From the NCBI GenBank assembly GCA_964016885.1, contig OZ024756.1, positions 32,240,001-32,304,000 on the forward strand: a DNA stretch of 64,000 bases, read 5' to 3'. Both the position numbers and the translations under genes were made by a program. Source of the stretch: Eledone cirrhosa. Its lineage: Eukaryota. The notes beneath the pieces were generated by a model. That model was not told the origin of the DNA. It did no database searches and was given only the letters and a program-made list of their open reading frames with translations. Below are positions 731-62,943 of the stretch, piece by piece (the first letter of the stretch is position 1; each line of letters opens with the position of its first letter).

Positions 731-786
731 TTGCAGTCCAGTATGCATTGTTTAGCCTTCTATCTCTTTCAACGTTATATATACAC

Positions 787-817
<31 letters not shown>

Positions 818-875
818 TATGTATATATAACGTTGAAAGAGATAGAAGGCTTAACAATGCATACTGGACTGCAAT
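729..875. repeat. Inverted repeat (~52-bp arms) with a (TA)n spacer
   Basis: TATTGCAGTCCAGTATGCATTGTTTAGCCTTCTATCTCTTTCAACGTTATAT / ATATAACGTTGAAAGAGATAGAAGGCTTAACAATGCATACTGGACTGCAATA. Confidence 0.9.
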
Positions 876-18853: not shown

Positions 18854-19450
18854 ACTCTGGATATAACATCGAAAACCTAACAAAATCTGGTTTCATCTGC
18901 AACCGCATTTCAGTAAATTTGTTCAATCAAATAATAAAATGCAGCTAGACATGACTTAGCCATAATCAGTAAATATTTTCTAGGCAGTAGCCAAGTACTA
19001 TAATTTATTTAATAGATCTAACATCATGTTTCATGAAATATATGTGTATGAAAAAAAAAAAAAAAAAAACTGTTGCAAAGCTCCACCTATATGCGGTCAG
19101 TACAAATAACGCAGGTACCCAAATGCAATTATGAGACGAAATGGCATCTTCCCTGAAGAACAAACTATAAAACATTTCCAGTGGATAACATTACATTTAG
19201 GAAAATTGAAGAGAAGATGACTAAAAAATTCATTTCTACATTCATAGAGCGTCGTTCAGGATGAAAAAAATATGGAACATCTTATTCATAACCGAATGGT
19301 ATTGATATTAAAAACCCTATCTATACTTGAAGAATTTCGTTACTGACTAGTAAACATCGATGATAGACTGAGAGAGGCGGAATCTACTCTGCACAGTGGT
19401 GAAATATCAAATCACTTCTATACAAATTTAGAACTAAAGCAATTGAACTG

Positions 19451-20040
19451 TAATAATTGTTTCTATTTTTAGTATAAGGCCAGCAATTATCCCAGTACAT
19501 TACTGGTGCTTTATTTTATCGACCCAGTAAGGATGAAAGGGGACGATAACTTCGGCGGGATTTGAACTCAGATCATACAGTGCCGTAACTCTATGCTACA
19601 AAGCATGGTGTCCGACGCTCTATCGATACTGCGAATACAAGGCCAAATGAACGGTAATAATTGTTTCTACTTTTGGCACAAGGCCAGTAATACACAGTAC
19701 ATTACTGGTACTTTATTTTATCGACCCCGTAAGGATGAAAGGCAAAGTTAACCTCGGCGGGATTTAAACTCAGATCGTAATGAGTCGTAACTCCATACTG
19801 CTAAGCATGGCGTCCGACCCTCTACCGATACTGCCAACTCACCGCCCTTCGATGAACGGTAATAATTGTTTCTACTTTAGGCACAAGGCCAGCAATTACC
19901 CAGTGCATTACTGGTGCTTTATTTTATCGACCCCGTAAGGATGAAAGGCAAAGTCAACCTCGGCGGGATTTGAACTCAGATCGTAAAGGGACGTAACTAT
20001 GCTGGAAAGCATGGCGTCCGACCCTCTACCGATTCTGCCA
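19451..20040 (-). mobile_element. Three head-to-tail family A SINEs
   Basis: Units 19451-19640, 19655-19848, 19860-20040, with (TGA)AC(G/T)GTAATAAT at all four junctions. Confidence 0.92.
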
Positions 20041-23305: not shown

Positions 23306-25085
23306 TATTCCTTGAATCTCAGTCATTGATGTTGGTTAACTGGAAAGTCCGTTGGATTGAATATCAAGCCACTACCTGCAGCCTCAGATATTCAGGACGT
23401 ATCGGAGGGTTCTTGCCGTTCCAAGCAAGCATGCCTTTTGAAGCGTTCCAAAAAGCGTGAAGGGGCCGATTTTCTTTAACCATCCCTGGAAACCTTTGGA
23501 GATAGTCCCCAGTGCGCCTATGACAATCGGGATCACTTTGACTTCATGGCAGTTCCAAATCCTTTTCACCTCCCACTTTAGGTCCTGGTATCGGTTAATT
23601 TTCTCCCTCTCCTTCTCTTGCACTCTCGTGTCGAACGGGCAGGCCACATCCACAATCAGGCACGATCTTTTTTCTTTGTCCACAACCACCAGGTCAGGTC
23701 TATTGTGTTCCAGTTTTTTGTACGTCTGTATCCTAAAATCCCACAGCACCTTCACCTGACTGTTCTCTATCACCGCCTCTGGCCTATGCTCATACCATTT
23801 CTCAGAATGTGGTAGATTGTTTACTTTGCACAGGTGCCAGTGGATCACCCTGCCCATCACATCGTGTCTCCAGCCCTTATAGTGGGTCTGGGCTAGGTGT
23901 TTACACTCGGACACAATGTGAGCCACAGTCTCCTCTCTCTCTCCACAGATCCTGCACAGTGGGCTAGCCTCCTCCTTGTAGATATGGTGCTTCAACCACT
24001 TCGTTTTGAGGGCCTGCTCCTGCGCAGCCATTAGCATTCCTTCTGTAGCCTTTTTGAGGTCTCCTCTTCTCAACCAGTTCCATGTCTGTGGATCTCTAAA
24101 TTCAGTTTTCTCAAAGAAGGTACTATGAAGGGATTTTCCCTTAAGGCTGCTCTTCCTCCTTGATGTTATTTCCTCCTTGGATATCCCCTGGCCTACTGTC
24201 CCCCCCTTCAGTACAGCTCTGAGCATTGGCTCCTTACTATAGGTCACGTATTTGTATAGGTTGTTTTTCTCCATCTGAACACAGTCCTCTATGCTGATAA
24301 GACCTCTTCCACCCTCAGATCTCCTTAGGTAGAGTCTATCGACATCACTCCTCTTGTGGAACATGTTGTAGATAGTCAATAGCTTCCTAGTCTTCCTATC
24401 CATTTCTTTTTGTTCAGCAACATTCCATCTCAGAATTCCCGCACTGTACCTAATAATAGACACAGCTCGGGAATTTACTGCGCTTATGGCATTTCTGCTG
24501 TTCAGATGTGACTTCAATACGCTCCTTACTCTCCGAATGTATTCAGTTCTTAACAATTCCTTCATTTTTTTGTTCTTTATGCCATCAGCCTCCAGAACGC
24601 CCAAATACTTGTATCCTTCCTCAGAGTCAATTTCCTTTATCATCTCACCTGTTGGTATCTGGATCCCGTTACTTCTGCTCAACCTACCCCTCCTCATCAC
24701 AATGACTCCACATTTACCAATACCAAACTGCATACATATATCACTGCTGAAAATACGGACAGTGTCAACAAGCACATCCAACTCCTTCTCACTTTTCCCG
24801 AAGAGCTTAAGATCGTCCATGAAGAAGAGGTGATTGATGGTAAGCTCTCCCCTTCCCAACTTGTATCCTGCTCTCACTTTTCGCAGCATAATGGTCAAGG
24901 GCATCAGGGCAAGGACAAACAACAGAGGGGACAGGCTATCTCCCTGGAAGATACCTCTCTTGATCTTCACGCTTCCCAAGGATACTCCAGTTGATGTCAA
25001 CTCTGTCTCCCAGGACCCCATACTCCTGCCCAGCAACTGTCTGATGTTATCTGCCACCCTGAAGATCTCCAGGCTTTTGGTGATC

Positions 25086-25087
<2 letters not shown>
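23306..25087 (-). mobile_element. R4/Dong-like LINE insertion (ORF + ~80 bp 3' UTR) inside a (TAA)n microsatellite
   Basis: (TAT)n tracts abut both ends (about 23228-23300 and 25088-25132). Dong/Rex6-type R4-clade elements are known to target (TAA)n. Confidence 0.88.
23384..25087 (-). CDS. 5'-truncated ORF of an R4/Dong-clade (R2 superfamily) non-LTR retrotransposon: reverse transcriptase + CCHC zinc knuckle + restriction-like endonuclease
   Basis: The 557-aa ORF extends 10 more codons in frame to the (TAA)n junction at 25087 (WITKSLEIFR). RT motifs GIFQGDSLSPLLF, HLFFMDDLKLF, YKYLG; GGRGL; CRICGEREETVAHIVSEC; RHD; RLE motifs RPDLVVVD, IVDVACP, EKINRY, IPIVIGALG. No internal stops. There is no native start codon. 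Confidence 0.93.
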
Positions 25088-29493: not shown

Positions 29494-29741
29494 AATAGAG
29501 AGAGAAAGAGAATGAGAGAGAGAAAAAAGGGTAGAGAGAGAAGAAGAGAGGCGATATGTAAGCGTGATGGGACTACACATCGAGCAAAACTGGTACAGGG
29601 AGGTCACAGCGGTAATTCCAAAATTACAAGAAACGAAGCTGGCTCGGTGGTTCTGCAAACAAGGTTTAAGATGGTAATATGAACGAAACAAGAGAAGAAC
29701 CTCTTCATCAGCTGTTAAATGCAGATCATGAGTTTTTTTTC

Positions 29742-29916
29742 CAAATTGAAAAATAAAAAACAAGATGTCCTACACGAGTGAAAGTATAACGAAAAAAGAT
29801 GACTTCGAACATTTATTTATGTGTTTCCTTTATCGGTTTCACGCTTCTTATGCTTTTCAAAAATAGAATTGAGATGGAGGGTTTGTGCAAAACCACAAAC
29901 CCTCAATCTCAATTCT
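29742..29916. repeat. Family E copy with short terminal fold-back (29865-29916)
   Basis: GTCCTACACGAGTGAAAGTATAA...TGCTTTTCAAAA.AGAATTGAGATGGAGGGTTTGTG / CACAAACCCTCAATCTCAATTCT. Confidence 0.8.
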
Positions 29917-34720: not shown

Positions 34721-34851
34721 GGGAGACATGATATGAAGGTTAAAAAACACTTGTGAATAGTGCAGTTTTAAATCAACATATGTTGATATGTTGACTTAAA
34801 ACTGCACTATTCACAAGTGTTTTTTAACCTTCATATCATGTCTCCCTATTT
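34716..34851. repeat. Near-perfect inverted repeat (~60-bp arms) adjoining the 34650 hammerhead
   Basis: AAATAGGGAGACATGATATGAAGGTTAAAAAACACTTGTGAATAGTGCAGTTTTAA followed by its reverse complement. Confidence 0.92.
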
Positions 34852-35464
34852 CGCAGTTCTTGTGCTTTTCAAAAGTAGAATTGAGATGGAGAGTTTGTAG
34901 TTTTTCTCACATCTGGTTGGTGTTCGAATGTTACTTATGTTTTATATGGAAAACACTGGCTCGAAATGCTAGGTTTTTAGAGAAGTAACTTGGTTGGCTA
35001 ATGACTGTCATGTGAATAAGTATAATAAATTTCGCGCCAGTTCTTATTATATTTGCCTTTAAAAAAAGGGGGGTGGGGGTGGGCTCATATTGTTTTTTCA
35101 TATATGTGTGAAGTTTGGTTGGTTGATGCAGTCACCTGAATAAGCACATCAGCTTTCGAGCCAGTTTGTGTTTGAATTTCTTTTTACTTAAAAAAAAAGT
35201 GGCTCACGAAGTCTTTTTTTATAAATGTAATTTGATTAGTTATAAATGAAATTATGACTGTCACGAGAACAAGTACATTAAATTACGCGCCCATATTTTG
35301 GAATTTTTTTGTAGCCATTTAGAGAATTTTGTGCCAAACAAAAGATAATGGTCAAGAAAAACGGGATGGGGAGAATTGTTCTGGTTCAGTGAGTATGGCT
35401 GGTGTGCTGGGGTGTCAAAATTCGGAAATAAAGTAAGTAGAGATATGTATGTTTATTTGTGTGC

Positions 35465-35557
<93 letters not shown>

Positions 35558-35814
35558 TGCGTATGAAGATAATTCTATTAGTAGAAATGGGGGATCGAGT
35601 TGTGTGTGTGTATGGGTGTTATATGTGTGTATGTATGTGTGTGCGGAAGTATGGTTAGCATGTTAAGATGGAGAGAATATATATATATAGATATAGATAT
35701 AGATATAATTTTGAAAACCAAACAATGCATTAGAAAGAAAATTATTTATATTTGTGTTTCCTATTCAACAATGCTTCAGGAAAGCTAATACATATGCACA
35801 TATATATATATTAT

Positions 35815-49324: not shown

Positions 49325-49838
49325 CGCGCGTGTGTGTGTGTGAGAGAGAATGTATTGATATTCTTCTCTAAAGATTATCTTCAATGCCTGGTAGCAAGAG
49401 GACGCATTGTAAGCTATCATATAATAAAAATAATAATTTTTGCTCGTCCATCCGATTCTTCTTCTTCTTCTTCTTCCTCTCTTTCTTCTTCATTAATTAT
49501 AGTCATTGGCTTCTTTCAGTTTTCCTTCGCTGATTGTTCGTTTATTCAATTCCATTCAACTCAGAATCTTATGTAAGTATTCATGTGACTTGACATATAA
49601 ACCATCACTCCTTCCACCCCTCCCCAACTTTCGTTGCTCCTCCCACATACCATCATAAATAGTTACCCCCACCATTCAGCACTCCTCCTACCCTAATTGT
49701 GTCATCACTCCTCCCTCTCATCCCACACACCACCATAGCTACCCCCCCCCCATTTCTCATTCATCAACAATCTCATTTCCTACGATATTCCTCGCTCTCA
49801 GACCCTCATCATGCTATATATATATATATATATATAAA

Positions 49839-50187
49839 AAAAAGATGAAATCGAAAATGCAACTGGAGTCTTCTTTAAAAAAAATATATATATTTATTTG
49901 GTTCCTTTACCGGTTTCTCAGTTCTTCTGCTTTTCAAAAGTAGAGTTGAAATGGAGGGTCTGTGGTTTTTCTCACAGATGAGAAAAACCACCGACCCTCC
50001 ATCTTAACTCTACTTTTGAAAAGCAGAAGAACTGCGAAACCGGTAAAGGAACCAAATAAATATATATATTTTTTAAAAATAAGACTCCAGTTGCATTTTC
50101 GATTTCATCTTTTCTTCTTTATACTTTCACTCGTGTAGGACACCTCGGTTATTTTTCATTTTGTAAAAAAAACAAAAGAAACCTTAC

Positions 50188-50192
<5 letters not shown>
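49839..50192. mobile_element. Family E fold-back element (~135-bp arms plus ~80-bp unpaired extension) inside (TA)n
   Basis: 49839-49973 pairs with 49979-50113. Homologues at 29742-29916 and 34849-34915. Confidence 0.88.
50013..50048 (+). ncRNA. Minimal hammerhead-like motif with U3-A8 core variant (family E)
   Basis: CTT-TTGAAAA-GCAG[AAGAA]CTGC-GAA-ACCGGT-A-AAG. Inverted twin at 49905-49940; decayed relatives near 29828-29863, 34849-34875 and 52566-52601. Confidence 0.6.
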
Positions 50193-50238
<46 letters not shown>

Positions 50239-50842
50239 AGATGTTGGAATGAGTTGGTACTGATCCTGAACCAACTACTCAACGAACTCGTTAAACACCC
50301 AGTCATACCTGCTTCTATCTTATATATTATATATTATATAGTATATAATATGTATTATATAGTTTATATCATATATTGTGTGAAGAATGTAGAATAATAC
50401 ATATATATTATTTATTTAAGTTGATGTTATCAAAATAAATTTGAAATATTCTGGTAGAAAAGGCATTTAAAACTCGGTCTATAAATTATGTATGTTTAAT
50501 CCCACGAAGTTATTTAAATATGCACATCTACACATAAAAATAGATACACATACACACCTACATACATACGTTCATATATACATGAATACATACATAAATG
50601 CATATATGCATACATATAAACATACGTACATAGACAAATATATACATAAATACATACATATATGCATACATAAATACATATATACATTTACACATAAATA
50701 CATGCATACATACATTAGAAGTATATAACCAATTATAAAATTTGATGACATTTATTTCAAATGCTCACGCACAAACACACACAAACACACACACACATAT
50801 ATACATGCCTGTATACAATGATGCACATATATATGTATATAT

Positions 50843-51227: not shown

Positions 51228-52139
51228 TATATATATATAAACCTAACGCATATAAATATCTTATATACATTTCTTCTGTTCACATATTATCTCGTACACA
51301 ATTCGTATCAAGCAGCAATATTTGATGATGTCTTCTTCTTCTTCAAAAAAAAAATCATATAATGCGTTTGATGAAACAAAGATATTTTGAAAAAACGATT
51401 CTCCCATACGCTTACGCAGCAAAAATAATTAGATTTAAGTTACATGCTGTTCTGGAAAGGAGCAAAGAAATACAATATCGGAAAATTATCAGGAAATAAC
51501 GGATGCTACTGGAAGAATATAGTGCGTTACTTTTATGTACATGCGAGTTTTTTGCTTATTATGTACTGTAAGATTATTTGCCACACAATATATGTATGTG
51601 TGTGTGTGTGTGTGTGTGTGTTTATGTGTGTGTGGGTGTGTATATGTGTGTGTATGTATATATATATATATAAGAAACAGAAACATATACACAAGGACAT
51701 ATGTGTGTATTTATATATATATATAGAGAGAGAGAGAGAAGCAGAGAGAGAGAAAGACAGAGAGACAGCGACAGAGAGGGAGAGAGAGAGAAAGAGAGAG
51801 GTAGAGAGAGAGAGAGAGAGAGAGAGGGGGGATCTTGCGTATTAACATATGTATGGATAGTGAAGTCGCAAGGTTTAATGGCTACAGTGCTAGGCTCACC
51901 GATATGATGACAATATTTCAACTCAAATGAAAAATGATTTGAAGCTTTAATTTGATAGCCAAGCATTGTCAAACGATCTGTCATGCTAAAGTTTAACTTA
52001 TCTATGGAACACTTAGTCAATTTTATGCGATATTTTCAAGAACAGGGAGTTTTGTTCATTAAACAACTGAAACACTCTTCACTGAAAACAAAATATATAC
52101 CAAACTTATAATATATATACCAAATAAATATATACCAAA

Positions 52140-52182
<43 letters not shown>

Positions 52183-52407
52183 GTTTGAGTATGTGTAATA
52201 AAGCCAAAACAATGCAGGTATGGACATAGAAAAAAGAATGCAATTGTAAAAGATATTGTTGACAATTCGTCCTTTACCTTAGATTTATTTAAATGTCCTT
52301 AATTTTCGAGATAATATCTCTTCTTCAGAGGGAAATAAAGGTCTCAAACCAGCGTTCTAAATATCTTGCCAAGCCATGCTGACAGGAAATAGTATAGAGC
52401 CTCCTCC

Positions 52408-52526
<119 letters not shown>

Positions 52527-52716
52527 ATATACATATATATATATATACGCTGTATCATAAAATTATTTTTGAAAAGCATTAGAAGTGCGCAACCGGTAAA
52601 ACACTTAAAACTAACACTGAATACTAACCATTACTTATTACTAATTTATATTTATTCCTAATTAAACTATTTTTCACTGGAAAAAATCTGTCAGCATTTT
52701 CTTTTCCTTTTTATTA

Positions 52717-62731: not shown

Positions 62732-62943
62732 TCAGTAAACCGCGCCATAATGCGACACTGCTTTTATTTAGTCGATCGTTTCGACCCTTGTAATTGTATT
62801 TTGAATCTGGTCCTTATTTTAGCGATCTCGTTTTTGTCGAAGAGACATAAACATACAAATATACCAGATTCAAAATACAATTACAAGGGCCGAAACGATC
62901 GACTAAATAAAAGCAGTGTCGCATTATAGCCGCAGTTTACTGA
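62732..62943. repeat. Inverted repeat (~80-bp arms, ~50-bp spacer) made of a SINE-like sequence
   Basis: TCAGTAAAC...ATAATGCGACACTGCTTTTATTTAGTCGATCGTTTCGACCCTTGTAATTGTATTTTGAATCTGGT and its reverse complement at 62863-62943. Confidence 0.88.

What the first reader, a model, noticed from the sequence alone, without database searches (positions are those of the whole stretch)
50013..50048. Hammerhead variant with U3-A8 in place of C3-G8 (core UUGAAAA)
Seen: CTT-TTGAAAA-GCAG[AAGAA]CTGC-GAA-ACCGGT-A-AAG, with the TTGAAAA-GCA...ACCGRTA frame repeated at 49905-49940, 29828-29863 and 52566-52601 (the last has a different paired stem II, GCATT/AGTGC, and GCAA for GAAA). Known: positions 3 and 8 pair in the active hammerhead fold, so U3-A8 is a compensatory double change. 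Inference: a whole repeat family uses this rarer core and would be missed by CUGANGA searches.
Basis: partly seen in the sequence, partly recalled or inferred. Interest (0 to 1): 0.7.

Follow-up and report, generated by a model that had tools for sequence, protein, structure and literature searches.

The report
Penelope transposon hammerhead, U3-A8 core
This is one of more than 11,000 copies of a Penelope-like jumping gene's end repeat, carrying a small hammerhead-shaped RNA motif that is predicted to cut itself slowly as a pair; its U-A core is already published from blood flukes, and only a sister family with a further fixed core change is unusual.

Summary
The motif is real: a minimal type I hammerhead layout with core UUGAAAA (U3-A8) at 50013-50048. 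It lies in the pseudo-LTR of a Penelope-like retrotransposon. A full-length copy elsewhere in the genome has the motif on both sides of an RT plus GIY-YIG frame, 4,915 nt apart. The genome holds 11,174 exact matches; 89 differ at position 3, 39 at position 8, and none listed has C3-G8. Three sister families keep the U3-A8 core while position 7 and the stem I pairs change, as a hammerhead should. The 49905 copy is only the inverted arm of the same insertion. U3-A8 hammerheads in Penelope-like elements, with this same heptamer, were published for Schistosoma (PMC4209133), and this scan noted such motifs on other DNA. New here: the GCAA at 52566 is not decay but the fixed state of a sister family (11,078 against 46 with GAAA), which I did not find in print. 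Cleavage is untested. Copy 5' ends cluster about 70 nt upstream of the cut site (50 of 90), not at it, and this locus would fold into a long hairpin that hides the motif.

The parts
50013..50048 (+). Minimal type I hammerhead motif, family A, U3-A8 core; predicted cut between 50045 and 50046
49977..50194 (+). Solo pseudo-LTR of a Penelope-like element (family A), including the roughly 65-nt 3' tail
   Evidence: 94% identical to the 3' end of long copy L032; the same repeat flanks the RT-EN frame in L375
49837..49976 (-). Inverted, tail-less second pseudo-LTR of the same insertion
49905..49940 (-). Hammerhead motif in the inverted arm, with C11.1 changed to A (stem II closing pair broken)
49816..49836 (.). 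(TA)n microsatellite, left flank (target)
50195..50234 (.). (TA)n microsatellite, right flank (target)
29732..29916 (-). Older subfamily A' pseudo-LTR with a short inverted stub; decayed motif at 29828-29863
34849..35688 (-). Family A-type 3' UTR and pseudo-LTR, cut off inside the motif after GAAA
52550..52795 (+). Family B pseudo-LTR fragment; motif at 52566-52601 with U3-A8 and the family-wide C13 (GCAA)

Best explanation
The motif is the minimal type I hammerhead in the pseudo-LTR of a Penelope-like retrotransposon with a Neptune/Nematis-type linker, and in the parent element it likely cleaves slowly after GUA as a dimer, while this solo, mirror-image copy is probably an inert insertion. 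Shown: the motif sits in both direct repeats around an RT plus GIY-YIG frame, about 70 nt after the place where most short copies begin and about 170 nt before the ATG. Inferred: two motifs pair through the ACCGGU palindrome to build stem III, U3 pairs with A8 in place of C3-G8, and cleavage trims or helps circularise a minority of transcripts. Inferred: most new insertions were copied from uncut or re-joined RNA, primed at (TA)n targets, and a template switch made the inverted arm.
For: Host element: L375 has motif-ORF-motif on one strand with 4,915 nt spacing, and L377 (family B) the same with 4,852 nt. Pfam GIY-YIG 31 bits (cut-off 22.6) and RVT_1 E 1.5e-5, below its cut-off. A CX4CX2C linker precedes the nuclease. 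Motif signature: five groups (A, A', B, C, D) keep UUGA-N-AA, a GCA/UG(C,U) stem II and G(A/C)AACCGGUA, while position 7 is A, A, A, U, C. Stem I pairs change on both sides: U-A to A-U at pair 1 (D) and pair 2 (C, D), C-G to U-A at pair 3 (B). Upstream flanks of A against C and D agree at only 10-11 of 40 places ungapped while the cores agree at 16 of 17. C and D open stem II with a U-U mismatch, a known tolerated form (PMC3088659). Co-folding two copies gives both stem II hairpins plus a 6-bp ACCGGU duplex as the minimum-energy state, -19.1 kcal/mol. The same heptamer is in an S. mansoni PLE hammerhead (PMC4209133 Fig. S3 text).
Against: No cleavage or RNA data. 5' ends of 90 copies show no peak at the cut site (1 within 3 nt, 1 more at +4); 80 of 90 span it. 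Family B spread to about 11,000 copies with C13, a position where mutation is reported to slow cleavage 10-100 fold (PMC4075628). Subfamily A' has a 3-bp stem II with a G-U closing pair, and C has a C-A mismatch at stem I pair 3. The first three stem II pairs do not covary among A-D. The slid control for stem I is weak: 14 of 18 paired in register against 11 and 12 when slid by one. The monomer folds no better than shuffles (z -0.55 and -0.11). In one deep scan only the G-C swap rescued the 3-8 pair (PMC9901934). In the anole element, hammerhead mutants did not affect insertion in vitro (PMC11167929).
Confidence: 0.8

Rival explanations
1. The motif descends from a hammerhead but is now kept for a non-catalytic job, such as pairing two element RNAs through the palindrome or binding the element's protein, and cleavage is negligible in the cell.
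For: C13 is fixed in a successful young family (11,078 against 46; median divergence 3.7% against 4.6% for A). No footprint of cleavage in insertion ends. The palindrome is the best-kept part across A-E. Published minimal motifs cleave poorly (PMC4209133).
Against: U4, G5, A6, A9, G12, A14, A15.1, U16.1 and an H17 are kept in all five groups while only position 7 drifts, which is the pattern of catalytic constraint. Rare cleavage would leave little trace among insertions.
Confidence: 0.15
2. The conserved island is a DNA or splicing signal (promoter element, nuclease site, or a GUA splice donor overlapping the palindrome) that only resembles a hammerhead.
For: It lies near the start of the pseudo-LTR in the 5' UTR; introns overlap hammerheads in Drosophila Penelope (PMC4209133); every family has GGUA there.
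Against: It does not explain two-sided stem I changes, the stem II hairpin or the free position 7. The bases after GUA differ in every family. Insertion ends fall at about -70, +79 and +145, not in the motif.
Confidence: 0.04
3. Chance resemblance in A/T-rich repeat DNA.
For: The motif is short and its stem I has only 3 pairs.
Against: Position in the pseudo-LTR of an element class known to carry such motifs; conservation across families whose nuclease domains are 51-76% identical; 0 control matches in the genome.
Confidence: 0.01

Closest known systems
Minimal hammerheads of Penelope-like element pLTRs, U3-A8 form of S. mansoni Cercyon elements (Cervera and De la Pena 2014, PMC4209133; main text parts 1-2 of 4 and supplement parts 1-2 of 3 read)
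   Same: Type I layout, short palindromic stem III, place in both pLTRs, opposite-strand pairs 100-700 bp apart, thousands of solo copies, and the same UUGAAAA heptamer in the S. mansoni(4) row of Fig. S3.
   Different: Families A and B lack the extra base between positions 9 and 10.1, have 4-5 bp stem II and 3 bp stem I, a 6-nt palindrome, and far more copies. Family B has C13; the 3' core column of Fig. S3 reads GAAA throughout in the extracted text.
Neptune/Nematis EN+ Penelope-like elements (Craig et al. 2021, PMC8557442; passages read)
   Same: RT then CX2-5CXXC linker then GIY-YIG; pLTRs; inverted 5'-truncated copy; tail at one end only; (TA)n target bias.
   Different: Tail here is about 65 nt, not 30-40. 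No tree with reference elements was built, so Neptune against Nematis is open.
Natural U3-A8 core variants (Perreault et al. 2011, PMC3088659; core-variation section and passages read)
   Same: Covariation of the 3-8 pair, described as active in vitro; U10.1-U11.1 mismatch as in families C and D.
   Different: The text I read lists no A13C variant; its figures 5, S6 and S7 could not be seen.
PAc Poseidon element of Anolis (PMC11167929; passages read)
   Same: Two preferred 3' ends that define a tail; no sign of ends at the hammerhead cut site; uncut RNA as the main template.
   Different: PAc has C3-G8 and its ORF starts inside the motif; here the ATG is about 170 nt downstream.

Membership tests
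Hammerhead ribozyme (type I, minimal) | Core C3 U4 G5 A6 N7 G8 A9 or a paired 3-8 variant | tested here: met
   U3-A8 in 30/30 A, 30/30 A', 30/30 B, 13/13 C (2 of 15 loci gave no motif) and 28/29 D (1 of 30 gave none); position 7 varies by family
Hammerhead ribozyme (type I, minimal) | G12 A13 A14 A15.1 and U16.1 H17 | tested here: met
   Met in A, A', C, D. Not met in family B, where 29 of 30 flank-anchored loci have C13
Hammerhead ribozyme (type I, minimal) | Stem II with G10.1-C11.1 | tested here: met
   4 bp in A, 4-5 bp in B with pair 4 changed from G-C to U-A; weaker in A' (G-U closing, 3 bp); U-U then G-C in C and D
Hammerhead ribozyme (type I, minimal) | Stem I next to the core | tested here: met
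   14 of 15 first-three pairs formed in A-D with two-sided changes at all three; slid control weak because of A/U runs
Hammerhead ribozyme (type I, minimal) | Palindromic stem III allowing a dimer | tested here: met
   ACCGGU in all groups; 6-bp duplex in the co-fold minimum; prediction only
Hammerhead ribozyme (type I, minimal) | Match to an Rfam hammerhead model | tested here: not met
   No hammerhead family up to E 10 on 49985-50075; a 36-nt minimal motif lacks most of what those models score
Hammerhead ribozyme (type I, minimal) | Self-cleavage after N17 | not testable with these tools
   No assay; insertion ends give no sign of it
EN+ Penelope-like element | RT followed by GIY-YIG nuclease | tested here: met
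   (frames broken in the copies seen; RT below the Pfam cut-off)
EN+ Penelope-like element | Direct pLTRs on both sides of the ORF, each with the motif | tested here: met
   2 of 6 picked same-region pairs are full units (L375 family A, L377 family B), a third (L379) a partial one
EN+ Penelope-like element | Inverted 5'-truncated pLTR and one-sided tail | tested here: met
   Window locus; two 3' end classes, 28 of 90 at +70 to +79 and 58 of 90 at +140 or beyond
Neptune clade | CX2-5CXXC linker and (TA)n targeting | tested here: met
   the linker is shared with Nematis
Neptune clade | Placement in an RT tree with reference elements | not tested
   No reference set was on hand
Non-LTR retrozyme | Non-coding tandem 150-400 nt units with a canonical hammerhead (recalled) | tested here: not met
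   Copies are solo or inverted pLTRs or run into a coding element

The most novel reading that the evidence does not exclude
Family B, with U3-A8 plus a fixed C13 in about 11,000 copies, is either a working hammerhead with a core not described before, or proof that a Penelope-like element keeps the hammerhead fold for RNA pairing or protein binding after giving up cleavage; the A/B pair in one genome would make the open question of what these ribozymes do directly testable.
Probability: 0.25. Interest if true: 0.6.

Novelty: new member of a known kind. Interest (0 to 1): 0.3.

Why it matters
The U3-A8 core itself adds little: it is published for Penelope-like elements. The locus does give a very large natural series (at least 23,000 exact motif copies in families A, B and C) with position 7, both stems and position 13 varied between families. 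The role of hammerheads in these elements is still unclear in the papers read. Two equally young families, one with A13 and one with C13, plus the lack of insertion ends at the cut site, offer a simple test of whether cleavage matters.

Tried and rejected
Rfam on the whole window: none of the 150 rows shown (of 461) was a hammerhead; the targeted scan found none. Sequencing runs: no RNA holder listed; the two lays were contigs only and say nothing on expression or ends. Search for a C3-G8 sister family with the same palindrome: 24 matches against 6 in the control; 8 are the reverse strand of what looks like a coding repeat (my reading), 2 are outliers of family D, whose majority is U3-A8, and 2 have A' flanks and may be chance double changes, so none is counted as covariation. 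MAFFT put the 5' core of C and D out of register by one, so pairs were counted on a core-anchored alignment. The hairpin at 50236-50325 is single-copy and was dropped. Papers not held: Lunse et al. on small PLE hammerhead variants, Przybilski and Hammann 2007, Nelson and Uhlenbeck 2008; any of them may bear on C13 or on U3-A8 rates. Searches that found nothing on C13: 'hammerhead ribozyme' with 'A13C', 'hammerhead', 'Penelope', 'GCAA'; one search gave one unrelated paper. The Octopus vulgaris repeat paper has no mention of hammerhead or ribozyme in its main text. bioRxiv supplements were closed.

Full report
Observation. It is not a chance match. The 49905 copy is on the minus strand and is the mirror arm of one 280-nt palindrome, 49837-50116, set in (TA)n. 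It has lost C11.1. The 29828 copy is also on the minus strand and decayed. A fifth, cut copy lies at 34849.

Host element. The window comes from a 3.0-Gb genome; its repeats look octopus-like to me, which is recall and not a call result. Thirty close copies share a unit of about 210 nt that ends in (TA)n, is often doubled in inverted form, and in some copies runs upstream for kilobases. Four such copies were extended; three reach broken frames with RT, a CX4CX2C linker and a GIY-YIG nuclease on the motif's strand. Of six regions picked for having two nearby motifs, L375 is a full unit, motif-ORF-motif with 4,915 nt spacing, and L377 is a full unit of family B with 4,852 nt. In L375 the ATG lies about 170 nt after the cut site. 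This is an EN+ Penelope-like element of Neptune/Nematis type as described in PMC8557442 (passages). The window locus is its typical stub: a pseudo-LTR with tail plus an inverted one without.

Is U3-A8 the family state? Yes. With positions 3 and 8 free there are 11,174 exact matches and none in the control. 89 have a non-U at 3 (by my count 43 C, 23 G, 23 A, all with A8) and 39 a non-A at 8 (16 G, 10 T, 13 C, all with U3). No C3-G8 copy is among them. These single changes look like neutral decay, so the family alone says nothing on pairing.

Is it a hammerhead? The evidence comes from sister families found through a GIY-YIG search (150 of 10,596 candidates scored, 30 fetched) and follow-up searches. 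Their nuclease domains are 51-76% identical between families. Groups A, A', B, C (816 exact matches) and D all have U3-A8; position 7 is A, A, A, U, C; the 3' core and palindrome are kept while flanks of A against C and D are largely unlike. Stem I shows two-sided changes at all three inner pairs, and stem II pair 4 is G-C in A and U-A in B. Against this: pair 4 is unpaired in A', C has one stem I mismatch, the inner stem II pairs never covary, and the slid control for stem I is weak. The monomer folds no better than shuffles, but two copies co-fold through the palindrome with both stem II hairpins intact, the dimer form proposed for such motifs.

The GCAA copy. Family B has C at position 13 as its fixed state: 11,078 exact matches with GCAA against 46 with GAAA, and 29 of 30 loci picked by flanks alone. 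Contigs of public runs under two organism labels show no other letter there at 3% or more (one sample may be the source of this assembly). The motif follows its own nuclease family in 8 of 9 loci. B is about as young as A (median divergence 3.7% and 4.6%, both low because the anchors were exact). PMC4075628 (passages) cites 10-100 fold loss for A13 mutants. I found no report of natural A13C (Fig. S3 text of PMC4209133), but three relevant papers and all figures were out of reach.

Does it cut in the cell? I mapped the ends of 90 family A copies picked by an anchor downstream of the cut site (the first 90 of 10,949 matches, all on one contig; inverted arms are not independent). 50 begin 64-75 nt upstream of the cut site, 27 further upstream, 3 inside the motif, 2 at +3 or +4, and 8 further down. 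So 80 of 90 span the site and no peak marks it. Templates were mostly uncut or re-joined RNA, as reported for the anole element (PMC11167929, passages). At this locus a read-through transcript would form a hairpin of -207.7 kcal/mol that hides the motif.

What is known. PMC4209133 (text parts 1-2; supplement parts 1-2) reports U3-A8 minimal hammerheads found through S. mansoni Cercyon elements, about 1,300 hits, one listed with the same UUGAAAA heptamer, and low in vitro activity for the minimal motifs tested. PMC3088659 (section) reports natural U3-A8 cores. PMC9901934 (passages) found only the G-C swap rescued that pair in its ribozyme, so U3-A8 may be slow. Four earlier notes of this scan describe like motifs in other genomes; they are unchecked and came after my reading was set.

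Verdict. The observation and the family-wide inference hold. It is a new member of a known kind, interest 0.3. The fixed C13 family is the part worth a bench test.

Noticed in passing
window 52294-52331 (-), in a repeat at 52107-52399: A canonical C3-G8 minimal hammerhead motif of another family, 704 exact copies in the genome; host element not checked.
   Followed up: partly
window 1498 (-), 3267 (+), 34712 (-), 48812 (-), 48934 (+), 59175 (-): More C3-G8 hammerhead-like cores in repeats; 48812/48934 form an inverted pair.
   Followed up: no
L249-L278 (family E), motif near 1590-1645 in L250: A related repeat has G8 with A at position 3 in 23 of 30 copies and a C one base upstream, so possibly C3 plus an inserted base; only 1 of 30 loci showed a sense nuclease upstream.
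   Followed up: partly
Families A and B (L113, L121, L127): B's nuclease groups with C and D (71-76%) not A (52-57%), yet its motif and upstream flank are closer to A (24 of 40 against 10-13), which may mean a pseudo-LTR swap.
   Followed up: no
L375 5720-5640 (-) and 90 sampled copies: A sharp 5' end and fold-back point 64-75 nt before the cut site, shared by A and apparently B; likely the transcription start or a strong RT stop.
   Followed up: partly
window 23384-25087 (-): 567-codon frame with RT and zf-RVT matches, a non-LTR retrotransposon fragment.
   Followed up: no
window 19440-20040 and about 20 other places: A roughly 200-nt SINE-like repeat, in places tandem.
   Followed up: no
window 733-872, 34736-34831, 62738-62936: Other long fold-back repeats that score on miRNA models below their cut-offs; probably similar inverted insertions.
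   Followed up: no
window 50236-50325: A single-copy hairpin-rich stretch next to the insertion; no other match in the genome.
   Followed up: yes
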